Shown here one piece after another: positions 2,253 through 59,719 of a DNA stretch of 64,000 nucleotides (positions are counted from its first letter, which is position 1; each line of letters starts with the position of its first letter). Both the position numbers and the translations under genes were made by a program. A model generated the notes under the pieces. The model had not been told where the DNA came from, did not search any database, and was given only the letters and a program-made list of their open reading frames with translations. The stretch spans positions 558,001 through 622,000 of the forward strand of contig NW_027253183.1 in the NCBI RefSeq assembly GCF_044704955.1. The letters run 5' to 3'. Source of the DNA: Pristiophorus japonicus. Lineage: Eukaryota.

Positions 2253-2597
2253 GTGCAGTTGTCCCTGTCCTGACCCAGTCTCCGAGCCTGGAACTTGTCA
2301 CAGAGGGTCACACGGCACGGTTACAATGCACCATGTGGAACGCCAGAGTGAGTGACACCGATGTCCACTGGTACCGGCAACTCCTGGGGCAAGATATGGA
2401 GTGGGTTTTAACACATGAGGCAAGTGGCAGCACACGCGGGAGCCCAGGTTCCACTGACCATCTCCAGCCTTCCAGAGACACCTCCAATGACAGCTTCATT
2501 CTGACAGTCACAGAAGTGCAGCCCAGTGACACTGTCGCCTATTACTGTAAAGTGTGGGGCGATATCAGCGGGAACGGAACCCAGCTCAATGTAACCA
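2253..2597 (+). CDS. Intact Ig V-set exon with germline-fused J-like G strand (non-rearranging VJ domain)
   Basis: AG acceptor at 2251-2252 and GTAAAT donor at 2598, phase 1 at both ends. Translation AVVPVLTQSPSLELVTEGHTARLQCTMWNARVSDTDVHWYRQ...SFILTVTEVQPSDTVAYYCKVWGDISGNGTQLNVT has the B-strand Cys, WYRQ, DxxxYYC and GxGTxLxV; no stops. Confidence 0.92.
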
Positions 2598-2700
2598 GTA
2601 AATACAGTTTACATTATATTAACCTGAATAGAAGGAATAACCTCTTACACATGGATTTATTGATCAGTATCTGATTAATATCACAAAAACCGCTGGTAAA

Positions 2701-5499
2701 CTTAATGCAATAAGGTGGACGAATTAACTGCGCAGATAGATGTTAATGGATATGATGTAATTGAGATTACGGAGACATACTCCAGGGTGACCAAGGCTGG
2801 GAACTCAATATCCAGGGGTATTCAATATTCAGGAAGGATAGACAGGAAGGAAAAGGAGGTGGGGTAGCGTTACTGGTTAAAGAGGAGATTAACGCAATCG
2901 TAAGGAAGGACATTAACGTGGATGATGTGGAATCTATATGGTAGAGCTGCGAAGAACCAAAGGGCAGAAAACGTTCGTGGGAGTTGTGTACAGGCCATCA
3001 AACAATAGTATGGGGGTTGGGGATGGCATCAAACAGGAAATTAGGGACGCGTGCAATAAGGTTACAGCAGTTATCATGGGTGAATTTAATCTACATATTG
3101 ATTGGGCTAACCAAACTGGTAGCAATACTGTGGAGGAGGATTTCCTGGAGTGTATAAGGGACGGTTTTCTAGAACAATATGTCGAGGAACCAACAAGAGA
3201 GCAGGCCATCCTAGACTGGGTCTTGTGTAATGAGAGAGGATTAATTAGCAATCTGGTCGTGCGAGGCCCCTTGGGGAAGAGTGACCATAATATGGTAGAA
3301 TTCTTCATTAAGATGGAGAGTGACACAGTTAATTCAGAGACTAGGGTTCTGAACTTAAGGAAAGGAAACTTCGACGGTATGAGACGTGAATTGACTAGGA
3401 TAGACTGGCAACTGATGCTTAAAGGGTTGACGGTGGATAGGCAATGGCAGACATTTAAAGATCACATGGATGAACTACAACAATTGTACATCACAGTGTG
3501 GCGTAAAAATAAAGGGAAGGTGGCTCAGCCGTGGCTAACAAGGGAAATTAGGGAAAGTGTTAAATCCAAGGAAGAAGCATATAAATTGGCCAGAAAAAGC
3601 AGCAAACCTGAGGACTGGGAGAAATTTAGTATTCAGCAGAGGAGGACTAAGGGTTTAATTAGGAGGGGGAAAATAGGGTATGAGAGTAAGCTTGCAGGGA
3701 ACATAAAAACTGACTGCAGAGGCATCTACAGATATGTGAAGAGAAAAATATTAGTGAAGACTAATGTAGGTCTCTTGCAGTCAGAATCAGGGGAATCCAT
3801 AATGGGGAACAAGGAAATGGCAGACCAATTGAAAAAATACTTTGGTTCTGTCTTCACTAAGGAAGACACAAATAACCTCCCGAAAATACTATGGGACAGA
3901 GGGTCTAGCGAGAAGGGGGAACTGAGGGAAATCCTTATTAGTCAGGAAATGGTGTTAGGGAAATTGAAGGGACTGAAGGCCGATAAATCCCCAGGTCCTG
4001 ATAGTCTGCACTCCAGAGTACTTAAGGAAGTGGCTCTAGAAATAGAAGATGCATTGGTGGTCATTTTCCAACATTCCATGGACTCTGATTCAGTTCCTAT
4101 GGATTGGAGGGTAGCTAATGTAACACCACTTTTTAAAGAAGGAGGGAGAGAAAACAGGGAATTATAGACCGGTTAGCCTGACATCGGTGGTGGGGAAAAT
4201 GCTGGAATCAATTATTAAAGATGAAATAGCAGCGCATTTGGAAAGCAGTGACAGGATCGAACCAAGTCAGTATGGATTTATGAACGGGAAATCAAGCTTG
4301 ACAAATCTTCTCGAGCTTTTTGAGGATATAACTAGTAGAGTGGATAAGGGAGAATAAGTGGATGTGATGTATTTGGACTTTCAAAAGGCTTTTGACAATG
4401 TCCCACACAATAGACTAGTGTGCAAAATTAAGGCACATGGTATTGGGGGTAATATATTGACGTGGATAGAGATGTTGGCCGACAGGATGCAAAGAGTGGG
4501 AATAAACGGGTCCTTTTCAGAATGGCAGGCAGTGACTAGTGGGGTGCTGCAGGGTTCAATGCTGGGACCCCAGCTATTTACAATATACATTAATGACTTT
4601 GACGAAGGAATTGAATGTAATATCTCCATGTTTGCAGATGACACTAAGATGGGTGGCAGAGCGAGCTGCGAAGAGGATGCTAAGAGGCTGCAGGGGACTT
4701 GGACAGGTTAGGTGAATGGGCAAATGCAGTATAATGTGGATAAATGTGAGGTTATCCACTTTGGTGGCAAAAACAGGAAGGTAGATTATTATTTGAATGG
4801 TGACAGATTAGTAAAAGAGGAGGTACAATGAGACCTGGGTATCATGGTACATCAGTCTTTGAAGTTAGGCATGCAGGTACAGCAGACAGCAAAGAAAGCA
4901 AATGGCATGCTGGCCTTCATAGCAAGGGGATTTGAGTATAGGAGCAGAGAGGTCTTGCTGCAGTTCTACAGGACCTTGGTGAGACCACACCTTGAGTATT
5001 GTGTGCAGTTTTGGTCTCCTAATTTGAGGAACGTGCTTGCTATTGAGGGAGTGCAGCGAAGGGTCACCAGACTGATTCCCGGGATCCAGAAGAATGAGGG
5101 GAGAATCTCATAGAGGCATATAAAATTCTGACGGGACTAGTCAGGTTAGATGCAGGAAGAATGTTCCCAATGTTGGGGAAGTTCAGAACCAGGGGTCACA
5201 GTCTAAGGATAAGGGGTAAGCCATTTAGGACCGAGATGAGGAGAAACTTCTTCACTCAGAGAGTTGTTAACCTGTGGAATTCTCTACCACACAGAGTTGT
5301 TGATGCCAGTTCGTTAGATATATTCAAGAGGGAGTTAGATATGGCCCTAACTGCTAAAGGGGGTCAAGGGATATGGAGAGAAAGCAGGAAAGGGGTACTG
5401 AGGTGAATGATCAGCCAAGATCTTATTGAATGGTGGTACAGGCTCGAAGGGCCGAATGGCCTACTCCTGCACCTGTTTTCTATGTTTCTATGTTTCTAT
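2701..5499 (+). mobile_element. CR1 LINE, 5'-truncated, ORF2 (APE endonuclease + RT) with frameshifts
   Basis: VGVVYRPS, GKSDHNMV, KSPGPD, YLDFQKAFD, QGSMLGPQLF, FADDTK; 3' tail (TATGTTTC)n at ~5478-5499. Confidence 0.95.
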
Positions 5500-5520
5500 C
5501 ATTGCTCTGTTCCCTGTTAG

Positions 5521-5563
5521 GCATTGAAGGAATCGGATCAGTCCATATACAGTGAGCTTAAAG
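5521..5563 (+). CDS. Candidate cytoplasmic exon encoding the distal half of an ITAM (ALKESDQSIYSELK)
   Basis: Pyrimidine-rich acceptor CTCTGTTCCCTGTTAG and strong donor AAG|GTATGT; the phase-0 reading gives xL-x7-YxxL. Confidence 0.5.
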
Positions 5564-6007
5564 GTATGTTTCTCTCACACTTGGCAAGGGTAGAGGCAAA
5601 GCGTGTGATATCTGTCACTTTTTGTATAAATGGTGAAACTGTGGGAAACCTTCACCTAAAATGGATCCATAGCAGCAACACTGCCTGGAATAGACCGAGA
5701 GCAATGGGCCCAGTGTGGTAACGGGCCATCAGTAGCCCAGTACGGTGATGGATTGAATGTTGTGTGGTGATGAACAGCTTTTACTAAATCATTAACACCC
5801 ACAGCCGCACACACACAAATCCTCTCCTTTGTTCACACTGAGTATTGTAACCAGGTTAAAAGTAGCCAGCACATTTCATTTTCTGATTCAACATTTTCCA
5901 TTGGTTTCAAGGGTTAAGTAAATTATTGGCTCTGATGTTTTCCAACAAGAGCTATGTCACATTAATTCTGGGAAAACAGACCATAATAATCAAGGGAAAG
6001 CTACGTA

Positions 6008-12410: not shown

Positions 12411-12540
12411 ACACAATCCTGAGACCTACCAGTCTGTATGGCTCAGATATGCCCGGGATAAACTCAATGTCTGAATTGTCACATTTTACACGAGATTACT
12501 GCAGATAACTGTTTTTAATTTTGTTCAAAACAGGCAATAT

Positions 12541-25994: not shown

Positions 25995-26351
25995 GTCTAA
26001 AGGCAAGTCCGGTTCTTATCCAGTCCCCAGAAGTTGTGACGATGCTCGAAGATGGGATGGTGTAGTTTCGCTGTGCCCTGGAGAGCAGCAATGTGAATGA
26101 CCGTGTGGATAAATATACTGTACACTGGTACCACCCATCAATTGGGAAAAGCAAACCTTTATTGACTCTTTCTGTAGCTGGCGAGGTTTAACAAAACAAT
26201 GGCTTCTTTAAACAGTTTGAGCTTTCCAGAGATGTTTCCATTAACAGCTACATTCTGACCATCAGAGGCGTGCAGCACAGAGACAGCACTGTCTATATTT
26301 GTGGTATTTGGGGAACAATCTATGGAAATGGAACCCGGCTGAATGTAACCG
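25995..26351 (+). pseudogene. Pseudogenised Ig V-set exon with fused J-like strand, paralog of 2253-2597
   Basis: LKASPVLIQSPEVVTMLEDGMV*FRCALE...VHWYH...GEV*...SRDVSINSYILTIRGVQHRDSTVYICGIWGTIYGNGTRLNVT; stops TAG 26063-26065 and TAA 26189-26191; acceptor CAG changed to CGG; donor G|GTAAGT intact. Confidence 0.9.
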
Positions 26352-29039: not shown

Positions 29040-29145
29040 GACTTACTGACATTAAAGAGCTTGTGATATTTGTCCTGCCTGATCATTTTACTGATGCAGT
29101 TGTGCATGCAGCACCACTCGTACTATTCATTGGCTGCTCGTCCTG
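29040..29145 (+). pseudogene. Possible frameshifted transmembrane exon
   Basis: Branch-like CTAAC, pyrimidine tract and CAG acceptor, phase 1. Joining two frames gives KELVI-LSCLIILLMQLC-AAPLVLFIGC, but this needs two compensating frameshifts. Confidence 0.3.
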
Positions 29146-29191
29146 TAGTGCGGTGGTGGGGTGGGGGGGCAACTAATGGACAGGAGGAACG

Positions 29192-30411
29192 AGATCCACC
29201 TCTGGGCAGGTACCCCTCCAGATCCACCTCTGGCCAGGAGCCCCTCCAGGTCCACCTCTGGCCATGAGCCCCTCCAGATCCACCTCTGGCCATGAGCCCC
29301 TCCAGATCCACCTCTGGCCATGAGCCCCTCCAGACCCACCTCTGGGCAGGTACCCCTCCAGATCCACCTCTGGCCATGAGCCCCTCCAGATCCACCTCTG
29401 GGCAGGTACCCCTCCAGATCCACCTCTGGCCATGAGCCCCTCCAGATCCACCTCTGGGCAGGTACCCCTCCAGATCCACCTCTGGGCAGGTACCCCTCCA
29501 GACCCACCTCTGGGCAGGTACCCCTCCAGATCCACCTCTGGCCAGGAGCCCCTCCAGGTCCACCTCTGGCCAGGAGCCCCTCCAGGTCCACCTCTGGCCA
29601 GGAGCCCCTCCAGGTCCACCTCTGGCCAGGAGCCCCTCCAGGTCCACCTCTGGCCAGGAGCCCCTCCAGGTCCACCTCTGGCCAGGAGCCCCTCCAGGTC
29701 CACCTCTGGCCAGGAGCCCCTCCAGGTCCACCTCTGGCCAGGAGCCCCTCCAGGTCCACCTCTGGCCAGGAGCCCCTCCAGGTCCACCTCTGGCCAGGAG
29801 CCCCTCCAGGTCCACCTCTGGCCAGGAGCCCCTCCAGGTCCACCTCTGGCCAGGAGCCCCTCCAGGTCCACCTCTGGCCAGGAGCCCCTCCAGGTCCACC
29901 TCTGGCCAGGAGCCCCTCCAGGTCCACCTCTGGCCAGGAGCCCCTCCAGGTCCACCTCTGGCCAGGTGCCCCTCCAGGTCCACCTCTGGCCAGGAGCCCC
30001 TCCAGGTCCACCTCTGGCCAGGAGCCCCTCCAGACCCACCTCTGGCCAGGAGCCCCTCCAGACCCACCTCTGGCCAGGAGCCCCTCCAGACCCACCTCTG
30101 GCCAGGAGCCCCTCCAGACCCACCTCTGGGCAGGAGCCCCTCCAGACCCACCTCTGGGCAGGAGCCCCTCCAGACCCACCTCTGGGCAGGAGCCCCTCCA
30201 GACCCACCTCTGGCCAGGAGCCCCTCCAGACCCACCTCTGGCCAGGAGCCCCTCCAGACCCACCTCTGGCCAGGAGCCCCTCCAGACCCACCTCTGGCCA
30301 GGAGCCCCTCCAGACCCACCTCTGGCCAGGAGCCCCTCCAGACCCACCTCTGGCCAGGAGCCCCTCCAGACCCACCTCTGGCCAGGAGCCCCTCCAGACC
30401 CACCTCTGGCC
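29192..30411. repeat. 28-bp minisatellite (GGCCAGGAGCCCCTCCAGGTCCACCTCT), ~43 copies
   Basis: Direct tandem repetition with blocks of variant units. Confidence 0.97.
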
Positions 30412-30412
30412 C

Positions 30413-31903
30413 AGTTGGTGAGAGGCGGGAGCGGCCTATAAAAGGCCCAGCGGGAGATCGAGAGCCAGCGGCAGTTGGTGAGAGGCGGGAGCGGCCTATA
30501 AAAGGCCCAGCGGGAGATCGAGAGCCAGCGGCAGTTGCTGAGAGGGGAGCGGCCTATAAAAGGCCCAGCGGGAGATCGAGAGCCAGCGGCAGTTGGTGAG
30601 AGGTGGGAGCAGTGTTGGAGCGGCCTATAAAGGCGTACTTGTGCAGCTACTGCGGGAGAGAAAGCAAAATAGAAGTAGAAAGGGATCAAAAGGTGACGTC
30701 ACAGCCAATGGGGTAAGTGATTTGCTAGTGATTGGTGAGTAGCTTTTCTTTTTATTTTTATATCAGTAAGTGAACTGTAACATTGTTATTACCAATTTAA
30801 GGGTATCTAAGGGTTAAGGCATGGCAGGAGAGCTCGATCACGTGATATGCTCCTCCTGTACCATGTGGGAACTCAGGGACACTTCCGGTGTCCCTGACGA
30901 CTACGTGTGTGAGAAGTGTATCCGCCTCGAGCTCCTGACGGTCCGCGTTGCGGAATTGGAGCTGAGGGTGGATTCACTCTGGACCATCCACGATTCTGAG
31001 AATGACGTGAGTATCACGTGTAGTGAGTTGGTCTTACCGCAGGAGAAGGGTCCACAGCCAGATAGGGAATGGAAGACCAGCAGGAAGAGCAGTGCAAGGA
31101 AGGTAGTGCAGGGGTCCCCTGTGGTCATCCCCCTGCAAAACAGATACACCGCTTTGAGTACTGTTGGGGGGGATGACTCATCAGGGGAGGGCAGCAGCAG
31201 CCAAATTCATGGCACCGTGGCTGGCTCTGCTGCACAGGTGGGCAGGAAAAAGCGTGGGAGCGCGATAGTGATAGGGGATTCAATGGTGAGGGGAATAGAT
31301 AGGCGTTTCTGCGGCCGCAACCGAGACTTCAGGATGGTATGTTGCCTCCCTGGTGCAAGGGTCAAGGATGTCTCGGAGCGGGTGCAGGACATTCTGAAAT
31401 GGGAGGGAGAACAGCCAGTTGTCGTGGTGCACATTGGTAAAAAAAGGGATGAGGTCCTACGAAATGAATTTAAGGAGCTAGGAGCTAAATTAAAAAGTAG
31501 GACCTCAAAAGTAGTAATCTCGGGATTGCTACCAGTGCCACGTGCTAGTCAGAGTAGGAATCGCAGGATAGCGCAGATGAATACGTGGCTTGAGCAGTGG
31601 TGCAGCAGAGGAGGACAAAGGGTTTGATTAGGGCAGGGAAAATGGAGTGCGAGAAGAAGCTTGCAGGGAATATTAAGACGGATTGCAAAAGTTTCTATAG
31701 GTATGTAAAGAGAAAAAGGTTAGTAAAGACAAACGTAGGTCCCCTGCAGTCAGAATCAGGGGAAGTCATAACGGGGAACAAAGAAATGGCAGACCAATTG
31801 AACAAGTACTTTGGTTCAGTATTCACTAAGGAGGACACAAACAACCTTCCGGATATAAAAGGGGTCAGAGGGTCTAGTAAGGAGGAGGAACTGAGGGAAA
31901 TCT
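30413..31903 (+). mobile_element. CR1 5' portion: 60-bp 5'UTR repeats, ORF1 (zinc finger/leucine zipper + SGNH esterase), internal deletion into ORF2, no 3' tail
   Basis: CSSC..W..CEKC, VAELELRVDSL, VIGDSMVRG, CLPGARVKDV, VVVHIG; junction at CAGCAG microhomology near 31602. Confidence 0.9.
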
Positions 31904-32131
31904 TGGCCCTCCAGGTCCACCCCTGGCCAGGAGCCCCTCCAGGTCCACCCCTGGCCAGGAGCCCCTCCAGGTCCACCCCTGGCCAGGAGCCCCTCCAGGT
32001 CCACCCCTGGCCAGGTGCCCCTCCAGGTCCACCCCTGGCCAGGTGCCCCTCCAGGTCCACCCCTGGCCAGGTGCCCCTCCAGGTCCACCCCTGGCCAGGT
32101 GCCCCTCCAGGTCCACCTCCGGCCAGGAGCC
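31904..32131. repeat. Continuation of the 28-bp minisatellite (~8 copies, CCACCCCT variant)
   Basis: Same unit as 29192-30411. Confidence 0.95.
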
Positions 32132-32985
32132 TCTCCGGGCATCTACTGTGGAGGCAGCGCGAAGGAATTGCAGAGCATGTCAATGGCAGGAATATTGCAC
32201 CCAGATCGTGGCTACAATGCCGGAAGACATTTAATGATCTACCTGGAGTTGTTAAGATACGAACACTGATCTCATCCCTGCTCACAGCTGCACCACCTCA
32301 CAGCACCCAAGTCCCTTCCATAAGTTCCCTTCATTCTCCTACACTCACTAAACCATACTTCACTGCTTCTCCTTCTCATACTCAGACACTCATCACGGGT
32401 ACAACCCTGACTTGCCCACAACTCACATCTCACACACTCATTATCAGCTATTCCACCATGACCACCACATGTTCCTCAAGTCTCTCACTAACATGACACT
32501 GTTTTCTTGCAGAAGGTGGTCACACACAACTCAAGACAGCAACTGTCACCGGAGGAGGCACAGTCCACCTGCACACTCTCCTTCCCCGCCCTTGAAGAAA
32601 ACGTGCTTGCCATCAGGGGCGGGAGAGAGTTGATGTCGAGGCAACTGGCAGAGGTTGGGGCAACTGGAGGTGACGTTGCACAGGGTGTCTTCACACCTCA
32701 TTCTCTCTGTCCCTTCTGACCTCTCTCACCACTCTCACTGCAAGCTTCAGATACTTTCAGCACTTCTCTCTCTCGGCACTCCATTCTCACCACAGGCTAA
32801 CCCTTGTTTCTCTCTCTCCATTTTAGGTCATGATAATGGAGAAGAGGAGTATAGGCAGAGGAGGCCAGCCTTCCGGAAGATGCAGTCACAGGCACCAACT
32901 CAGATACTGGTATCATGCGGATCTTATAGGCTTGATTAGAGTAGATGTCTACACGCGGTGACACACAGGGCACAAATGCTCAGCG
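32120..32985 (+). mobile_element. Harbinger-associated Myb/SANT-like gene remnant
   Basis: EGIAEHVNGRNIAPRSWLQCRKTFNDL followed by intron-like pyrimidine-rich sequence. Confidence 0.65.
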
Positions 32986-49768: not shown

Positions 49769-49820
49769 ATGTTTGGCCCGAGGCTCACAGCCGTGACTCT
49801 GACCCTCTGTGTCGCAGTGG
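49769..49820 (+). CDS. Signal-peptide (leader) exon MFGPRLTAVTLTLCVAV-G
   Basis: ATG, a basic residue, a hydrophobic core, 52 nt, and a phase-1 consensus donor G|GTAAGT; joins in frame to a VJ exon of the 25995 type (..VAV-G-LKA-SPVLIQSP). Confidence 0.7.
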
Positions 49821-50215
49821 GTAAGTAAATGCCCAGAGTGGGGGCACCCAACCTGGGTTTGGTTTTTCATGATCACATTTCTGAGATTGATTTTCCGATT
49901 GTGGCCGGGTGGTGTGAGTCGGGTATTTTGCAGTCAGATATTTATGTTTAAGAATTGAGATATGTTGGGATTTCTCATGGTTCAGTGGGCAAATACACGG
50001 TAAGATGTGACACTGAGCCACACTGCCCAGTTATCCCACGCCTGACTGCTTGGGTGTGACGATCAATAGACTCAGCTGTGCTGCTCTTCAAGAAGTCATC
50101 CAGAATGTATTGTCCTGACTCATTTATAAAGAACAGACATTTGGATGAGCTATCAGAAGGCTGTCACCACCTGTGGAATCATTCCCCACAGTGGGACACA
50201 ACTTCAGGGTGAGGA

Positions 50216-53200
50216 TATTATAAAGAGTCTGACTGGATACTGTGAGCTCAAAGTAAAGTGTGACCTTAGTCTTTTATTGCAGGTCTCCAGTGTGCATCTC
50301 CGGCCTGTTCGGCTTCCTTAAGTACCTGTGCTCCCAAGGGATTGTGGGATCCCTTGGGACTCCAGGAGATGAGCCCTCTGGTGGTTGTACGAGGTATATA
50401 CAAGTTCACATATATCACAACACTCTTTCTCCCCTCCCGCCCCCCCATAGTCAACATTGTAACTATTTACAAGGTGAGTCGATCTGGGGCCTTACTTTCC
50501 CTGGTTGATCGTGTCGGTACAAATGCTGGTTTTGGTGAATCGTTTGTTGGGCCCTCGCTGGGCTGCTGTGCAGTTGGCCTTGCTGGGCTGCCTGGTGTGG
50601 TGAGTCCTGCTGGGCTGCTGCGGGTGATGGGTTCTGCTTCGTGGCCAACCGCGGTGTCGGTCGTCGCTGGTGTGTATGTTGGGGGTCAAAGAAGGTAGGG
50701 TCCAAGGTGGATTGCTCGGGATAGTCCGTGAATCTGAGTTTGATTTGGTCCAAGTGTTTCCGGTGAATGAGTCCATTGTAAAGTTTGACCCAAAACACCC
50801 TGCTCCCCTCTTTGGCCACAATGGTGCCAGGAAGCCACTTGGAAACTTGTCCATAATTCAATACAAACACAGGATCATTGATTTCAATTTCGCGTGACAC
50901 ATTTGCGCTGTCATGATATGCACTTTGTTGAAGCCGGCTGCTCTCTACCTGTTCATGTAGATCAGGGTGAACTAACGAGAGCCTTGTCTTTTCATGAGCA
51001 GTTCAGCAGGTGGGATCCCAGTGAGCGAGTGGGGTCTCGTGCGGTAGCTAAGCAGGACTCGGGATAGGCGAGTCTGCAGTGAGCCTTCAGTTACCCTCTT
51101 CAAACCCTGCCTGATGGTTTGCACTGCTCGCTCTGCCTGACCATTGGATGCTGGTTTGAACGGGGCAGATGTAACATGTTTAATCCTGTTACGGGTCATG
51201 AACTCTTTGAACTCGGCACTGGTAAAACATGGCCCGTTGTCGCTCACAAGGACATCAGGTAGTCCGTGCGTGGCAAACATGGCCCGCAGGCTTTCAGTGG
51301 TATCTCACATTCAATCCGTTTGGAGTACGCATCTACAACCACAAGGAACATCTTACCCAAAAACGGGCCTGCATAGTCGACATGGAACCTGGACCACGGT
51401 TTGGAGGGCCAAGACCATAAACTTAGTGGTGCCTCCCTGGGGGCATTGCTTAACTGTGAGCATGTGTTACATTTGTGCACACAGGACTCTTAAGTCCGCA
51501 TCGATACCGGGCCACCACACGTGGGATCTGGCTATCGCTTTTATCATTACGATGCCTGGATGGGTACTGTGGAAGTCACTGCTGAAAGTGTGTCTGCCTT
51601 TTTTGGGGACCACTACCCGATTGCCCCACAGAAGGCAGTCTGCCTGTTTAGACATTTCATCTTTGCGCCGCTGGTGCGGCTTTATCTCTTCCTGCATTTC
51701 CACTGGGACACTGGACCAGTTCCCGTGAAGCACACAATTTTTTACTAGGGACAGTAAGGGGTCATGGCTTGTCCAGGTTCTAATCTGTCGGGCTGTGACT
51801 ATTGTTCACTCTCGAATGCTTCCATAACCATGACTAAATCTGTGGGCTGAGCCATTTCCACCCCGTGGTGGGCAACGGCAGCCTACTGAGAGCATCGGTA
51901 CAATTTTCTGTGCCTGGCCTGTGGCGGATGGCGTAGTTGTGAGCGCGCATCTCTGGATGCGGGCTCATGCATTCGTATTTATCCCCTTACTCTCGGAAAA
52001 CAGGGATATTAGTGGCTTATGATCAGTTTCCAATTCAAATTTTAGCCCAAACAGATATTGATGCATTTTCTTTACCCCATAAACACACGCTAACGTTTCC
52101 TTTTCAGTCATGTTGTAGGCGCTCTCAGCCTTAGACAGACTTCTGGATGCATAAGCAACTGGTTGCAATTTCCCAAAATCATTAGCTTGTTGCAATACAC
52201 ACCCGACACCATACGACGACACATCACATGTTAGTACCAAACGCTTACATGGATCATACGACACAAGCAATTTGTTTGAGCATAACAATCTTCTAGCTTT
52301 TACAAAGGCATTTTCTTGGCTTTTTCCCCATACCCATTCATCTCCTTTATACAGTAAGGTGTGCAGTGGTTCTAACAGTGTGCTGAGACCTGGTAAGAAG
52401 TTACCAAAATAGTTCAGGAGTCCTAGACACGACCACAGCTCCGTCACGTTCTGTGGCCTCAGTGCGTTCTCGATTGCCTCCGTCTTCGAATCGGTGGGCC
52501 TGATGCCGTCTGTCGCGATTCTTTTCCCCAGGAACTCCACTTCAGGCACCGGGAAAATGCACTTTGAGCGTTTTAACCTGAGCCCCATGCGGTTGAGTCG
52601 ACTAAGAACCTCCAGGTTCTGCAGATGCCCACTTGTGTCCTGACCTGTACCCAAGATGTCGTCCTGGAAAACCACTGTGCATGGGACCGAATTCAGTAAG
52701 CTTTCCATGTTTCTCTGGAATATCGCCGCCGCTGATCGAATTCCAAACGGACATCTGTTGTAAATGAAGAGACCTTTGTGCGTGTTGATGCAGGTGAGGC
52801 CCTTTGATGATTCCTCCAGCTCCTGCATCATGTAGGCTGAGGTCAACTCCAGCTTCATGAACGTCTTTCCTCCTGCCAGCATAGCAAAATGGTCATCAGC
52901 CTTTGGTAGTGGGTATTGATCCTGCAGGGAGAAACGATTGAAAGTTACTTTGTAATCACCACAGATTCTGACGGTGCCGTCTTCCTTGAGGATTGGAACA
53001 ATCGGACTGGCCCAATCATTGAATTCAATCGGCGAAATTATGCCCTCTCTTTGCAGCCGGTCCAGCTCGATCTCTATCCTTTCATCATGTACGGTACTGC
53101 TCTCGCCTTGTGATGGATGGGTCGCGCCCCCGGAATTAGGTGGATCTGCACTTTTGCTCCTTGAACTTCCCGATGCCTGGTTCGAACAGCGAAGGGAACT

Positions 53201-54705
53201 TGTTTAAGACCTGGGCACACGAAGTGTCATCAGCGGACAAGAGCACTCGGACGTCGTCCCAGTTCCAGCGTATCTTTCCCAGCCAGCTCCTGCTGAGCAG
53301 CGTGGGACCATCGCCCGGTACAACCCAAAGTGGTAGGTTGTGCACCACTCCATCATAGGAGATCTTTACTGTAGCACTGCCGATTACTTGAATCAGTTCC
53401 TTTGGATAAGTTCTCAGTTTCGTGCGAATGGGAGTCAAGACTGGCCTTGAGGCCTTGCTGCACCACAATTTTTCTAAAGTCTTTTTGCTCATAATGGACT
53501 GGCTCATGCTCGTGTCCAACTCCATTGACACCGGGAGTCCTTTAGTTCAACCTTCAGCATTATCGGGGGACACATTGTGGTAAAAGTGTACACCCCATAT
53601 ACCTCTGCCTCCTCGGTCTGAGGCTCTGGTTCGTCGTGATCTGCCCTCCTCTGCAACATGGTGGTTTGCAGGATTAACAGGGTTTGCAACTTGCCTACAC
53701 TTACATTGGAGGTGTCCCATTGTTCCACAGCCCTTACAAACGTACCCTTTGAAGTGGCATGAATGGAAACGATGATCACCTCCGCAGCGCCAACAAGGTG
53801 TTAATGGCCTTGCATTCATTACCCTTGATGGTGGACTCAGAGACATCTGCGGATGTGCAGCTGCAGGCATGTGGGGCCTGCCCTGTACGTTGCGATTTGA
53901 AAACAACATTACTTTGTTCACAGTACTTGTAGCAGCACTCGTGTGCTGAGAGATTTGCTTAGTATTGTCACTGGTGGCAATGAACACCTGGACTAACGCT
54001 ATGGCCTTACTCAAGGTTGGGGTCTCCACAGTCAAAAGTTTGCGAAGTATCACTTCATATCACTTGTATCACTTCAAGTCTCTGAGCATGTGCTCCAAAT
54101 GTCCTTCAAATTCACAATGTCCTGCAAGGCGTCTTAGCTCGGCAACATAACTCGCTACTTCCTGGCCTTCAGACCTTTTGTAGGTGTAGAACCGGTACCT
54201 CGCCATCAGAACGTTTTCATTCGGGTTCAGATGCTTCCGGACCAATGTGCATAAATCATCATACAATTTCTCTGTGGGTTTCGCTGGAGCAAGCAGATTT
54301 TTCATGAGGCCATACGTTGGTGCCCCGCAAACAGTGAGGAGAATTGCTCTTCGTTTGGCAGTGTTCGCTTCTCCTTCCAGCTCGTTGGCCACGAAATATT
54401 GGTCGAGTCGCTCCACGGAGGTTTCCCAATCATCTCCCTCCGAGAATTTCTACAGGGTGCCCACTGTTGCTGGCATCATTGGGTTTGTCATCTGTAACTC
54501 GTCGCCAGTTATTATGTATGAATAAAGAGTCTGACTGGTTACTGTGAGCTCAAAGTAAAGTGTGACCGTAGTCTTTTATTGCAGGTCTCCAGCGTGCCTC
54601 TCCAGCCTGTGAGGCCCCCTTAAGTGATTGTGGGATCCTTTGGGACTCCAGGGGATGAGCCCTCTGGTGGTTGTACAAGGTATATACAAGTTTACATATA
54701 TAACA
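50216..54705 (-). mobile_element. Full-length but decayed Gypsy (Mag-like) LTR retrotransposon
   Basis: LTRs 54510-54705 and 50216-50419; PBS TGGCGACGAG; purine tract at ~50420-50447; gag CCHC, protease LDTS, RT FQDD, RNase H ETDHKPL, integrase VSDNGP; TSD GAGGA/GAGGG. Confidence 0.95.
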
Positions 54706-55027
54706 GAGGGGAAGAAAACTAATCACTGTGGAATAGAATGAAGATATGTGCATCGATTCAGCGATGGTGAGCTCTCAGAGGATCCGTGCTCCTGGAGTGG
54801 ACCTTGCTAAATTGAGAGAATAGGAAGGAGCTTTTGATCATCTTCTCCAATCGCTCCTCCTTTGGCTTGACACCTGCTTCCCTCACACCTCTGTTAAGCG
54901 CCATGAAATATTTTTCTGCGGTAAGGGACTGTTAAAGGCAAGTTGTTCTTGGCCCAGCCTGTGCTGGATACAGCACAGCACCACAGACTGGGCTCACTGC
55001 AGCAACATCCATGAAAGTCTGAGTAAA

Positions 55028-55603
55028 TAGAAATGGTGTTTTCCTCTTTCTGGGTGTGGCTGCTTTTAATTTAGTTTGTGGTGATATGCTGTGTAATTTC
55101 CTCCGAATTATCCGTCATTTTGGGGCGATTGAGTAAATTGAGTTCTTGGGCGACAGCCTCAAACCTGTTGCTACAAAACTGCCCGAGTTATATTCCCAAA
55201 AAAGCACCAGACCCCTTTATCGTCTGTCAGGAGCCCACCTGTCTGATGGGAATGGCTTACTCCCCTGACCCATTTTCCCAAAGCTCTGCCCCAAGTTCTT
55301 CTCCTTACTATGTAAGTTATAGTACGAGATGCAAGAAGGTATTCCTGAGATGGATAGAGTATCGAGGAGGCCATGTAATGTGCAGCTGTTGAAGATTGCC
55401 ATTACTTTGCCGGTAGATTGGCGTCTTTAATACTCCAGTGCTTCAGTCTGGACTTTTGCTATTAATTTTACTAATCTCTGCTCACATCACTACCTTGCAT
55501 TGGGGACATGAACTTCCCAGTGGAATCCTATTATGGTATCGCGAAGGATATGGAAAAGGGGCTAGATTGGAGGTGATCATAGTCAGCGTGATTCTTCCCT
55601 ACA
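55028..55603 (+). other. Duplicated non-TE block (copy C), paralog of 21011-21642
   Basis: See copy B. Confidence 0.85.
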
Positions 55604-55775
55604 AATCAAGAAAGTCGTCATTGAACTTTTCCACCACCAGAGCCTCAGAAAGCTGCCCCTTGCATTCATGGCTCACGGCTCCAGTAAGGCTTCTGGAGGC
55701 TGGGGAATGGGTGGGCAACAGATACAGATACACCACAGTACCCATGCCACTGCACAAAGTGTCACAGAGCAGACT

Positions 55776-56704
55776 GAGTGTAATGTAGCCAAGTTTGCTG
55801 ATGATACAAAGATGGGTGGGAAAGCAAGTTGTGCGGAGGACATGAAGAATCTGCAAAGGGATATAGACAGGCTAAGTGAGTGGGCAAAAATTTGGCCGAT
55901 GGAGTATAATGTGGGAAAGTGTGAGGCAGGAAAAATACAAAAGCAAATTATGATTTAAATGGAGAGAGATTACAAAATGTTGCAGTACAGAGAGACCTGG
56001 GGATCCTTGTGCATGAAACACAAAAAGTGAGTATGCAGGTTACAGCAAGTGATCAGGAAGGCAAATGGGATGTTGGCCTTTATTTCAAGGGGGATAGAGT
56101 ATAAAAGCAGAGAAGTCCTGCTACAACTGTACAGGGCGTTGGTGAGGCCACACCTGGAGTACTGCATCTAGTTTTGGTCTCCTTATTTAAGGAAGGATAT
56201 ACTTGGATTGGAGGCAGTTCAGAGAAGGTTCACTAGGTTGATTCCGGAGATGAAGGGGTTGACCCATGAAGAAAGGCTGGGCCTATACACATTGGAGTTC
56301 AGAAGAATGAGAGGTGATCTTATTGAAACATCTAAGATACTGAGGGGGCTCAACAAGTCTGATGCAGAGAGGATGTTTTCACTCGTGGGGGAAATCGCGA
56401 ACTTGGGGGCATAATTTAAGAATAAGGGGTCGCCCATTTAGAACTGAGATGAGGAGGAATTTCTTCCCTGAAGGTTGTAAATCTGTGGAATTCTCTGCCC
56501 CAGAGAACTGTGGAGGCTGGGTCATTGAATATATTTAAGGTGGAAATCGACAGATTTTTGAATGATAAGGGAGTGAAGGGTTATGGGGAGCGGGCAGAGA
56601 AGTGGAGCTGAGCCCAAGATCAGATCAGCCATGATCATATTAAATAGCGGAGCAGGCTCGAGGGGCCAAATGGCCTACTCCTGCTCCTATTTCTTATGTT
56701 CTTA
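55776..56704 (+). mobile_element. CR1 LINE 3' part
   Basis: KFADDTKMGG, VQRRFTRLIP; tail TTCTTATGTTCTTA. Confidence 0.9.
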
Positions 56705-57639
56705 ATTCTCAAATCCCATTTTAGGTGCTAGATAAATCCAGTGGAGACCTACAGTGTAACCAAGAATCAATACATCCTAGTCTCCAGAATCATTCGAGTT
56801 TGCTGTGTTCTGCATAATATCACAATGAGAAAAGGTTTGTTGCTTCAGGAAGCTGAATGATTGGGTGGAAGAACCTGGTTGTATGTCTAAACTATCGTAG
56901 GCCATCTGAGGCAGAGCAGACAATATGAAGGGCAGGTGAGTGGTGAGGCCAATTTCTCTTCTTTGAGTACATGCTGCGATGTAGAGGTACACTGACGCTT
57001 TAAATGAAGTGTCCAAGAAGACTAACAGTAGCCCACATGGCAGGCAATGTGAGTTGCCAGAGTGGTTTTGAGTAATTGATTCATTGCAGGGGTTATCCCA
57101 TGTAGAAGTGAGATCCTCTGCTATCCAGCTGCTGAGAGGGCAGGAGAACGATAAATAGCAGTGGACTCACACTGGTGGGCAGCATTCCTCCTGTGCTGCC
57201 CTCCTCTGGTCTGGGCCCGCTGTGTTGTCCCGCTGGGCTACACCTCTGGCACCCTCCAATGCACCCTCCCTCACTCAGTACTGTCAATCCTACTCCAGTC
57301 ACATCGCTCCTCACCCTCACATAAAATAACTTTCATCAGCACCAATCGGACAAGTTCACGCACCTCCTCTCATCCTCACTCCCTTAACAAGCTCACCTCC
57401 CCCTTCCTCTGGTCCTGGCCCTCTCCCTGGCATTCTGCGCACTCTTCATCCTGCAGACCTGTGAGGAATGTGTGCATCTGATGGATGCAGTGCAAGGTGA
57501 GAATCAGGCAGATGCATAAGGAGTGGGAATGGCATGCCTTTGAGGAACATGGTCACGGTGCCACCTCAGGATGTGTAATGAGAGTGGGTGGAGGCGAGTG
57601 AGGTCAGATGAATTGAGGATTGTAGTTGCTGGCAGTGGT

Positions 57640-59719
57640 GCACATTAACACAGGTTTCTTACATGGGTCATATAGCGTTAACAGATTATTGGAACAGAAC
57701 AAATTGCATGCTCTATTAAAAGCCCTTTCCTGGCTGTCCCCCCAGACCCATTTGCGACCTTTGCGTAGGAGCACGTGTAGCGGCTCTAGCAGCCTGCTCA
57801 ATTTGGGAAGAAAGTTACCAAAATAGTTCAGGAGCCCCAGGAACGAACGCAGCTCCGTCGTGTTACGGGGTCTGGGTGCTCTCTGCATCGCTTCCGTCTT
57901 GGACGCAGTAGGGCTGATCCCGTCTGCTGCTACCCTCACCCCCAGGAATTCTGCATCTGGAGCTAGGAAGACGCACTTCGCCTTTTTCAGTCGCAGCCCT
58001 ACCCGGTCCAGTCTGCGTAGCACCTCCTCCAGGTTGTGGAGGTGTTCTTCAGTATCGTAACCCGTAATGAGGATGTCGTCCTGAAAAACCACCGTCCCTG
58101 GAATCGACTTGAGGCTTTCCATATTTCGTTGGAAGATCGCAGCGGCCGAGCGAATCCCGAACGGACATCTGTTGTACTCAAACAACCCCTTGTGTGTCGT
58201 GATGGTGGTCAGCTTCTTCGACTCACTCGCCAGCTCCTGGGTCATGTAAGCTGAGGTCAGGTCCAATTTTGAAAAAAGTTTGCCACCGGATAGCGTCGCA
58301 AAGAGGTCCTCCGCTCTCGGTAGCGGGTACTGGTCTTGGAGTGACACCCGATTGATGGTGGCCTTGTAATCGCCAAATATCCTGACCGACCCATCCGCCT
58401 TGAGCACCGGCACGATCGGGCTCGCCCAGTCACTGAATTCAACTGGCGAGATGATGCCTTCCCTCAGCAGGCGGTCCAATTCGCGTTCTATCTTTTCCCG
58501 CATCACGTACGGCACCGCTCTGGCCTTCTGGTGTACTGGCCTGGCGTCCGGGTTTATGTGAATCACTACCTTGGCCCCCATGAAAGTGCCAATGCCGGGT
58601 TGAAATACTGAGTCAAATTTGTCCAGGACCTGTGAGCATGATACTCGCTCCACAGAGGAAATTGCATTGACATCGTCCCATTTCCAGTTCATGACAGCAA
58701 GCCAACTCCTCCCCAGTAGTGCGGGACCGTCCCCTGGGACAATCCAGAGTGGCAGTCTGTTCTCCGAATCTTTGTGGGTCACGACTACCGTGGCGCTGCC
58801 TAGCACCGGAATGATCTGCTTTGTGTAAGTCCGTAGTTGTGCGTCAATCGGCGATAATTTTGACCTCCTGGCCTTGGACGCCCACAACTTTTCGAACTGT
58901 TTGATACCCATCAGGGGCTGGCTGGCCCCCGTGTCTAACTCCATTGATACTGGGATGCCATTGAGGAGCACTTTCCTCATTATCGGTGGTGTCCTGGTGT
59001 ATGAACTGTATACGTGCTCCACATGAACTCGCTGAACTTCAACTTCCAGCGATTTCCCCCAGCGTTCATTTCTGCAATTTCTGCAGGTATTCTGCTCACC
59101 TCTGCAAACTCCGGCTGAGTGTGTGCCTCCACGCCCAGCATGAGCTGTGGTTTGGAACAAAAGGTCCCTTGCCAGTCGATCGTCCCTGACTGCCCCTGTT
59201 ATTGCCCTTGATTGTGCCATTAACAGGTGTTGATGGCCCCATTACTGGCCGCATTGTCCCTTGCAATGGCGTGAATTGCCGTTCAGCTTGCCATTGTCTC
59301 TGTCGAACTCCCCCTCTGGGTTCGACAACATGTTGGGGCATGCCCGACTGCCCTTGTCTGCCTGGAGAACAGTGTGCTGCTTTAACAATGTTGAATCTCT
59401 CTCCCAACCATTCCTTAACACAGTACCTCTCGTCTGTTCTGCTAGTGGCCATGCTCGCGTGGTTTAAATCCCAGTTTCTTGTTGCTATTGGCACGTCCTT
59501 ACTATACAGTATAAATGCATACGAGGCCCATGCTTGAGAGGTCAGTCTGTGACCTGTCCTTTATTCCTTAGCACTCAAGTGCAGGAAGTGGGTGGAGCTT
59601 CCCCTTTTATACCTGAAGGTCCAGGTTAGGAGTGTCTCCCACCCAGTGGTCATTGTTCTCACAGTGTACAACTGAGGTCAGATTATACATGGGTTACAAT
59701 GCTGGTTGAATACATGACA
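57640..59719 (-). mobile_element. 3'-truncated Gypsy element with 5' LTR (59489-59719), partly deleted gag and open PR-RT
   Basis: 538-aa ORF with LDTGAS, WASPIVPV, YPLP, LDLTSAY, FQDD; breaks off at the start of RNase H. Confidence 0.92.

What the first reader, a model, noticed from the sequence alone, without database searches (positions are those of the whole stretch)
5500..5860. 43-nt exon with the conserved ITAM intron position and spacing
Seen: AG|GCA TTG AAG GAA TCG GAT CAG TCC ATA TAC AGT GAG CTT AAA G|GTATGT = AL-KESDQSI-YSEL-K. Established: in FcR-gamma (YT|GL-STRNQET-YETL) and DAP12 (YQ|EL-QGQRSDV-YSDL) a phase-0 intron splits the first YxxL, so the next exon starts xL-x7-YxxL, as here. 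A possible terminal exon at 5855 (CAG|GT TAA) would end the protein ..ELKG*. SIYSEL alone also fits an ITIM consensus. Caveat: only a CR1 lies between this exon and the V exon, so the TM and proximal Tyr exons are missing, and direct V splicing would read another frame (SIEGIGSVHIQ*), giving a short secreted form.
Basis: partly seen in the sequence, partly recalled or inferred. Interest (0 to 1): 0.7.

Follow-up and report, generated by a model that had tools for sequence, protein, structure and literature searches.

The report
Dead half-ITAM exon, shark paired receptors
This short exon encodes the second half of an immune activating motif (ITAM) that intact sister genes splice into membrane receptors built of antibody-like domains, but this copy has lost its membrane anchor and the motif's first half beside a transposon and is likely a dead passenger in an amplified, apparently undescribed shark and ray family of predicted activating and inhibitory receptor pairs.

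Summary
The 43-nt exon (5521-5563) is real and is the distal half of a classical ITAM. In 4 of 25 genomic copies it follows TM and two cytoplasmic exons; the last ends ..ATYM in phase 0, giving YMAL-x7-YSEL. That 102-nt intron is spliced out in contigs of 4 of 4 runs laid, and the motif stands in 22 of 105 homologues from 13 shark and ray species. The family carries tandem V domains with an encoded J-like strand and either this ITAM tail or an ITIM/ITSM tail: likely paired receptors. The window copy is likely dead. A CR1 replaces the TM and proximal exons (19 of 25 copies share this junction). The upstream V exon is frameshifted (17 of 18 scored units), no leader was found within 285 kb, and the true last exon (12534) is cut after 6 nt. 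The proposed 5855 exon and the secreted form are unsupported. Ten paper searches found no description of the family. The scan found this family, and a stranded half-ITAM, before on other DNA (e1-8659446, e1-8604729, e1-10291425).

The parts
2253..2597 (+). V-set exon with germline-encoded J-like strand (second V type of the family, 'VA'); open frame, phase 1 to phase 1
   Evidence: 89-93% identical to predicted proteins labelled Pristiophorus japonicus
2598..2705 (+). stub of the intron after V; found only in the 19 deleted-type copies
2706..5493 (+). 5'-truncated CR1 LINE standing where TM and two cytoplasmic exons lie in intact paralogues; its 3' tail meets the ITAM intron over a short TTCTAT-like match
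   Evidence: ends approximate to a few bases
5494..5520 (+). last 27 nt of the 102-nt phase-0 intron that splits the first YxxL, with intact acceptor
   Evidence: identical to the intact C9 copy back from the acceptor
5521..5563 (+). 43-nt distal ITAM exon (xL-x7-YSEL); 4 substitutions against intact copies, 3 of them changing residues (QQP to KES)
   Evidence: spliced in intact copies
   Evidence: no joint to it; an unspliced contig runs through it; spliced contigs use another exon
12534..12539 (+). relic of the true terminal exon (acceptor and first 6 nt), then cut by unrelated repeat-like sequence
26004..26351 (+). separate first-type V exon (V1) with 2 stops; same family, next unit (start approximate)
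49769..49823 (+). leader exon of the family, downstream of the finding; a second leader and an ITIM-type gene follow beyond the window end

Best explanation
The exon is the distal half of an ITAM that intact sister genes splice behind a transmembrane exon, and the window copy, which lacks the transmembrane and proximal exons, is likely a pseudogene fragment that was broken once, likely during a CR1 insertion, and then likely copied as a passenger with neighbouring inhibitory-type genes. Shown: intact genes run leader - V1 - VA(n) - (VB) - uncharged TM - cyt1 (DYENV) - cyt2 (..ATYM, phase 0) - this exon - short last exon; sister genes with near-identical V exons end in an ITIM/ITSM tail. Inferred from established ITAM biology, untested: ligand binding clusters the intact receptor, Src-family kinases phosphorylate both tyrosines, Syk/ZAP70 binds, YENV may bind Grb2, and the ITIM/ITSM twin would recruit SHP phosphatases, as in CEACAM3/CEACAM1 pairs. 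Inferred history of the window unit: a CR1 integrated 27-29 nt upstream of the acceptor and the upstream target (TM, cyt1, cyt2) was lost; V1 took a +1 frameshift; the last exon was cut; the block then multiplied to 19 assembled copies (14 distinct).
For: Exon order and phases in 4 complete copies. Spliced joint across the 102-nt GT..AG intron in 4 of 4 runs (2 studies), with cyt1 upstream and the true last exon downstream as loose ends; run X9 has 0 differences from the C9 copy in both exons. 22 of 105 homologues (13 species) have YxxL/I-x7-YxxL/I, all 22 with D/E/N three before the first Tyr and, in the 20 with a TM, no charged TM residue; 41 of 105 have ITIM/ITSM-type tails; 42 of 105 fit neither (names). 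This matches the ITAM consensus and exon split stated in PMC4536121, PMC2110893 and PMC5112662. ITAM-type VA is closer to same-species ITIM-type VA than to any other-genus ITAM-type VA in 11 of 12 species. Window type: 19 of 25 exon copies share the CR1 junction and 19 places hold the post-V stub; TM+cyt1 exists at only 4 places. V1 is frameshifted in 17 of 18 scored units, the window's included. VA is frameshifted in 6 of 19. The Leu of the first YxxL is Met in 11 of 19. The last exon is cut after 6 nt in 5 of 5 deleted-type copies read. The nearest detected same-strand leader is 285 kb upstream of the window's V1, against 12-32 kb in intact genes (read by hand).
Against: The window's own VA is open with intact splice sites, as are 13 of 19 deleted-type VA exons. 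YSEL and both splice sites are kept in all 19. One unit (C3248, L095) has an in-frame V1. pN/pS of deleted-type VA (0.70; 24 nonsynonymous, 11 synonymous variants, p=0.18 against neutrality) does not differ from that of the other VA exons (0.62, p=0.15), so selection does not separate dead from live copies. A low-depth unspliced contig in X9 continues into window-type sequence, so this region is present in that run as pre-mRNA, read-through or DNA. The runs laid are contigs whose RNA nature is guessed or not on record. Leader counts are lower bounds, and some contigs end close upstream. 18 of the 19 copies lie on sub-1.1-Mb contigs and 5 pairs are identical over 743 nt, so the copy number may be inflated by haplotype duplicates. 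The within-species V similarity uses predicted gene models that may join exons of neighbouring genes; Hypanus goes against it (0.65 against 0.85). No signalling was tested.
Confidence: 0.85

Rival explanations
1. The deleted units make a short secreted V-domain decoy (V spliced to this exon in the other frame, ending SIEGIGSVHIQ*), amplified because it is useful, like secreted members of paired-receptor families.
For: Splice sites kept in 19 of 19 copies and VA open in 13 of 19. The stop lies 8 nt before the next donor, so by the usual 50-nt rule (recalled) it could escape nonsense-mediated decay. One unit has an in-frame V1.
Against: No leader detected within 179 kb upstream of any of the 19 units (8 have one further away, 11 have none upstream on their contig, read by hand). 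V1 frameshifted in 17 of 18; by my reading of the frames this stops translation in VA or at the exon's first codons. VA frameshifted in 6 of 19. No loose end matching a V exon at this acceptor in 4 runs (weak).
Confidence: 0.06
2. The deletion arose by unequal recombination between two CR1 copies (one in the V-TM intron, one in the ITAM intron), not during one insertion; the unit is dead either way.
For: CR1 copies 80-95% alike are dense in these introns. No target-site duplication is evident at the two ends.
Against: The 6 copies without the junction have no CR1 just upstream of the acceptor. A 250-nt tile scan of the CR1 shows no clear switch to an orthologous copy from an intact gene. No copy with the CR1 in the intron but TM retained was found.
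Confidence: 0.3
3. The exon is an ITIM exon (SIYSEL) of an inhibitory receptor.
For: SIYSEL fits the ITIM consensus; the family does have inhibitory-type members.
Against: In intact genes and in spliced contigs it is joined to ..TYM in phase 0, forming a two-Tyr ITAM. The inhibitory-type tails are different exons (LYYADI, TEYAAI).
Confidence: 0.03
4. Most of the 19 copies are assembly or haplotype duplicates of one or two loci.
For: 18 of 19 lie on small contigs; 5 identical pairs over 743 nt.
Against: 14 distinct versions among 19, up to 3.4% apart, with private lesions and insertions; a diploid locus gives at most 2.
Confidence: 0.08

Closest known systems
CEACAM paired receptors (CEACAM3-type ITAM and CEACAM1-type ITIM/ITSM; PMC2110893, PMC5112662, passages read)
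   Same: Ig-V ectodomains near-identical between activating and inhibitory members; ITAM in the receptor's own tail, first YxxL split by a phase-0 intron; a YxN motif upstream of the ITAM; ITIM+ITSM twin; many broken copies
   Different: The ectodomain here is one to several V-set domains with an encoded J-like strand and the canonical Cys pair, closest by sequence to Ig light-chain V. CEACAM N domains lack that disulfide (recalled). Synteny not tested. Works like a CEACAM pair; no evidence that it is one.
ITAM signalling subunits CD3, CD79, FcR-gamma, DAP12 (PMC4536121, passages read)
   Same: [quoted passage not shown]
   Different: Those are adaptors with an acidic TM residue; here the ITAM sits on the ligand-binding chain and the TM is uncharged
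Ig light chain sigma-2 V of cartilaginous fish
   Same: Nearest named V outside the family among the 10 hits looked up: 42% identity of the window V to Heterodontus Ig sigma-2, 41-48% for related hits
   Different: Non-rearranging, tandem V exons, TM and Tyr-motif tail, no C1 exon in the genes mapped. The tree leaves the sister group open
UrIg / UrIg2 and NKp30, non-rearranging VJ genes of elasmobranchs (PMC12227049 abstract and passages; PMC10751288 passages)
   Same: Single-exon VJ domain, non-rearranging, elasmobranch
   Different: UrIg has VJ plus C1 domains and is antibody-like; neither paper contains the words ITAM or ITIM. Sequences were not compared here.
SIRP, NITR, skate MDIR, hagfish APAR/NICIR (recalled, not tested)
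   Same: V-type or VJ-type innate receptors with activating and inhibitory forms
   Different: SIRP has V-C1-C1, NITR V plus I domain, MDIR CD300-like domains, and activating forms mostly use a charged TM (all recalled). No sequence comparison was made; NCBI's automatic names for family members vary (SIRP-like, pIgR-like, IgSF3-like).

Membership tests
Classical ITAM (intact paralogues) | D/E/N-x-x-YxxL/I-x7-YxxL/I | tested here: met
   N-A-T-YMAL-x7-YSEL in P0060; 22 of 105 homologues match, all with spacer 7 and D/E/N at -3 (consensus from PMC4536121)
Classical ITAM (intact paralogues) | Two exons, phase-0 intron inside the first YxxL | tested here: met
   ..TACATG|GT, 102 nt, AG|GCA in 4 complete copies; spliced in 4 of 4 runs
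Classical ITAM (intact paralogues) | Phosphorylation recruits Syk/ZAP70 and activates | not testable with these tools
   needs a binding or reporter assay
Classical ITAM (window copy) | Both tyrosine modules present behind a TM | tested here: not met
   TM, cyt1 and cyt2 absent; a CR1 joins 27 nt upstream of the acceptor
Paired receptors | Near-identical ectodomains on activating and inhibitory members | tested here: met
   VA 99% alike between types among the Pristiophorus-labelled proteins; within-species closer than across genera in 11 of 12 species (predicted models)
Paired receptors | Opposing tail motifs on linked genes | tested here: met
   ITAM-type TM at 4 places, ITIM-type TM at 18 places; both on contig C3961; tails
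Paired receptors | Shared ligand and opposite signalling in leukocytes | not testable with these tools
   no ligand, tissue or signalling data
Germline-joined Ig light chain (sigma-2) | VJ followed by one C1 exon, no TM | tested here: not met
   mapped genes have tandem V, TM and cytoplasmic exons; 3 of 105 homologues carry a precomputed C1-set hit, not inspected
Germline-joined Ig light chain (sigma-2) | V nests within or is sister to sigma-2 V | tested here: inconclusive
   family V domains group together (91/85), sigma-2 groups apart (100/97), their relation is an open fork; 77 rows, 98 columns
UrIg/UrIg2 | VJ-C1-C1.. antibody-like chain in MHC or AgR complex | tested here: not met
   architecture differs (against abstract); linkage not tested
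CEACAM / SIRP / NITR / MDIR | Family-specific domain type and synteny | not tested
   no reference sequences or flanking-gene map obtained; features recalled

The most novel reading that the evidence does not exclude
The intact members are single-chain receptors that join antigen-receptor-type VJ domains to an ITAM with the CD3/CD79 exon split: a surviving form of the pre-RAG receptor from before recognition and signalling were divided between Ig/TCR and CD79/CD3, kept in elasmobranchs as a paired activating/inhibitory family. (The milder reading, an undescribed elasmobranch paired-receptor family whatever its origin, I put at about 0.65, interest 0.6.)
Probability: 0.1. Interest if true: 0.85.

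Novelty: new variant of a known kind. Interest (0 to 1): 0.5.

Why it matters
The window copy itself is likely an ordinary casualty of birth-and-death evolution. It matters as a pointer to a family. Sharks and rays have antibody-like VJ receptors with a built-in ITAM and ITIM/ITSM twins whose V domains are homogenised within species, the pattern seen in pathogen-driven receptor pairs. No description turned up in ten searches of the held library. It offers concrete candidates for innate or NK-like receptors of cartilaginous fish and a new set of unsplit VJ exons for the question of where Ig/TCR V genes came from. In this genome the amplification favoured inhibitory-type genes (18 TM places) and broken activating copies (19) over complete activating ones (4).

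Tried and rejected
Terminal exon at 5855: rejected. ITIM reading: rejected. RNA search: no RNA holder listed for the V exon. First read-laying on a 7.7-kb stretch was swamped by CR1 matches and showed no exon joints in the rows displayed. pN/pS could not separate deleted-type from other V exons. Excess divergence of the exon (4 of 43) over its flank (18 of 436) is not significant, p=0.12. The CR1 mosaic test gave no clear switch. The V-domain tree did not resolve the sister group and lacked TCR, NKp30, SIRP and UrIg rows. The PDB search gave only antibody V domains. Paper searches: 0 papers; 20 of 33 listed; 2; 20 of 71; 5; 20 of 37; 3; 2; 12 of 275; none of the listed titles describes this family. 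Two papers that could mention it were not held (a 2023 Immunogenetics paper sought by a recalled DOI; Ohta 2019, PMC6761025), nor were the original MDIR, APAR and NICIR papers seen. No supplements were opened; gene tables in supplements of PMC12227049 or PMC10751288 could list these genes. No structure or complex prediction was run. Flanking-gene synteny was not mapped.

Full report
Observation. The V exon upstream (2253-2597) is an open V-set domain with an encoded J-like strand and ends in phase 1. Between them lie a 108-nt intron stub and a 5'-truncated CR1 (about 2706-5493). It is the only AG-43nt-GT stretch reading xL-x7-YxxL in the window. The window is G000:C2571:558001-622000 of a 5.9-Gb genome; the closest database proteins (89-93%) are labelled Pristiophorus japonicus.

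The exon is half an ITAM. A DNA search found 25 places with the exon, and all 25 were fetched and read. Six lack the CR1 junction. Four of these (C3961, C691, C699, C9:6.23 Mb) have, upstream, a TM exon, a cytoplasmic exon with DYENV and an exon ending ..NATYM|GT in phase 0, then a 102-nt intron and ALQQPDQSIYSELK; the TM and first cytoplasmic exon occur at exactly these 4 places. Joined, this is N-x-x-YMAL-x7-YSEL. [quoted passage not shown] PMC2110893 and PMC5112662 (passages) note the phase-0 split in CEACAM ITAMs, and the latter also notes YxN motifs in such tails. Contigs of 4 of 4 runs laid (2 studies; one run's kind is not on record, three are guessed RNA) skip the 102-nt GT..AG intron. 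They carry the first cytoplasmic exon as the upstream loose end and a further exon as the downstream loose end; run X9 matches both exons without a difference. Of 105 longer homologues, 22 from 13 shark and ray species have YxxL/I-x7-YxxL/I, all with D, E or N at -3 and with uncharged TMs in the 20 that have one. 41 have ITIM/ITSM-type tails and 42 fit neither pattern, many of them truncated models.

The last exon is not at 5855. No joint leads to the 5855-equivalent site, and an unspliced contig runs through it. The exon actually used lies 5-9 kb downstream in intact genes and adds GNK* or DNK*. Its acceptor and first 6 nt survive at window 12534, followed by unrelated sequence, as in 5 of 5 deleted-type copies read; the genome search shows 17 such short matches.

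The window copy. 19 of 25 copies share one junction: the CR1's 3' tail meets the ITAM intron 27 nt before the acceptor, over a short match to the CR1 tail. The intron stub after V occurs at 19 places, the same 19 units, so the parent gene survives only in deleted form. In intact genes the TM-to-exon distance is 6.7-10 kb, so the loss is likely several kb. A single insertion with loss of target DNA is the simplest account (such events are known for L1; recalled). Recombination between two CR1s cannot be excluded. Further lesions: the V1 exon 17 kb upstream of the window's V is one base too long, and 17 of 18 scored units carry a V1 frameshift (1 in frame, 1 cut off by the fetch). VA is frameshifted in 6 of 19. 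The Leu of the first YxxL is Met in 11 of 19. Of 32 leader places, the nearest on the window's strand is 285 kb upstream of its V1, beyond another gene, against 12-32 kb in intact genes; none of the 19 units has one within 179 kb (read by hand; a lower-bound search, and some contigs end nearby). Against 'dead': the window's VA and splice sites are intact, YSEL is unchanged in 19 of 19, one unit has an in-frame V1, pN/pS is uninformative (0.70 against 0.62), and a low-depth unspliced contig of window type is in X9. The shared lesions suggest that the unit broke before it was copied. The 19 copies give 14 distinct versions over 743 nt, up to 3.4% apart, and lie among ITIM-type genes (18 TM places; one follows the window). 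It likely travelled as a passenger in segmental duplications. Some copies may be haplotype duplicates.

The family. Members have a leader, one to several V exons of three types, a TM and a tyrosine tail. The VA domains of ITAM-type proteins are closer to ITIM-type VA of the same species than to ITAM-type VA of other genera in 11 of 12 species (Hypanus is the exception; I assigned proteins to types by hand; predicted models and 90% clustering may bias this). In G000 the two types are separate loci, so the pairing is not only a modelling artefact. How it likely works (inferred, untested): the ITAM form signals through Src-family kinases and Syk/ZAP70 without an adaptor, the ITIM/ITSM form through SHP phosphatases, both seeing the same ligand.

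Relation to known systems. It works like a CEACAM3/CEACAM1 pair, but its domains are antigen-receptor-like. The nearest named outsiders, among 10 proteins looked up, are Ig light chains, sigma-2 first (42% for the window V), a lead taken from e1-8604729. A tree of 77 V domains groups the family's domains with a chimaera protein (91/85) and leaves the relation to sigma-2 open. It is not a light chain or UrIg by architecture. PMC12227049 (abstract, outline, passages) and PMC10751288 (passages) discuss non-rearranging VJ genes but contain neither ITAM nor ITIM. PMC6795676 (passages) names no such shark family. PMC3308329 (passages) gave only a reference title. SIRP, NITR, MDIR and APAR are recalled comparisons, not tested.

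Novelty and verdict. Ten searches of the held library listed no paper on this family; two likely papers were not held and no supplements were read, so 'undescribed' is provisional. My reading was written down before the look-up of earlier notes. Those notes show that the scan has met this family on other pieces of this genome, including a stranded half-ITAM, and likely in another genome; they are leads, not support. The copy is likely dead (0.85). Interest 0.5, resting on the family, not on this copy.

Noticed in passing
G000:C9:4442208 downwards, minus strand (L040, L100): A VA-type exon without its donor runs into one open frame of 3050 aa made of short repeats with 206 N-x-S/T sites: a V domain on a huge, likely glycosylated stalk. 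Similar proteins in a bamboo shark (P0103) and a skate (P0077, 1999 aa with TM).
   Followed up: partly
G000:C1414:446329-446911 (L058): A third TM type follows VA after a short intron; related proteins (P0067, P0068, P0079, P0080, P0084, P0091) have two YxN motifs and no ITAM or ITIM.
   Followed up: partly
proteins P0004, P0076, P0087, P0092: Predicted proteins that join the TM and first cytoplasmic exon of an inhibitory-type gene to the ITAM exons: tail swaps by recombination, or chimeric gene models.
   Followed up: no
L002:3324, L019:5044, L036:3435, L013:1204: The donor of the third V type (VB) is AT in 2, GC in 1 and GT in 1 of the 4 copies read, so VB is likely skipped or read through in several otherwise intact genes.
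   Followed up: no
G000:C9:6084771-6234979: The predicted protein P0062 joins a V exon and a TM exon that lie 150 kb apart on the large contig; none of the 18 ITIM-type TM places is on C9, so the small contigs may belong in or near this interval.
   Followed up: no
G000:C9:5691716-5720463, minus strand (L021, L022, L062): Two more ITAM-tail relics without V or TM in the stretches fetched: one with a stop in the distal exon, one lacking the proximal exon.
   Followed up: partly
window 26004-26351 and 49769-49823: A V1 exon with two stops and a leader exon of the same family; a second leader 16.5 kb further on starts an ITIM-type gene beyond the window end.
   Followed up: partly
window 29100-32300 and 50300-59600: A GC-rich tandem repeat array giving long frames on both strands, and two gypsy-like pol fragments by the look of their translations; the rest of the window is mostly LINE debris.
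   Followed up: no
protein P0146 (Callorhinchus milii): A chimaera V domain falls inside the family's group in the tree, so the family may predate the shark-chimaera split.
   Followed up: partly
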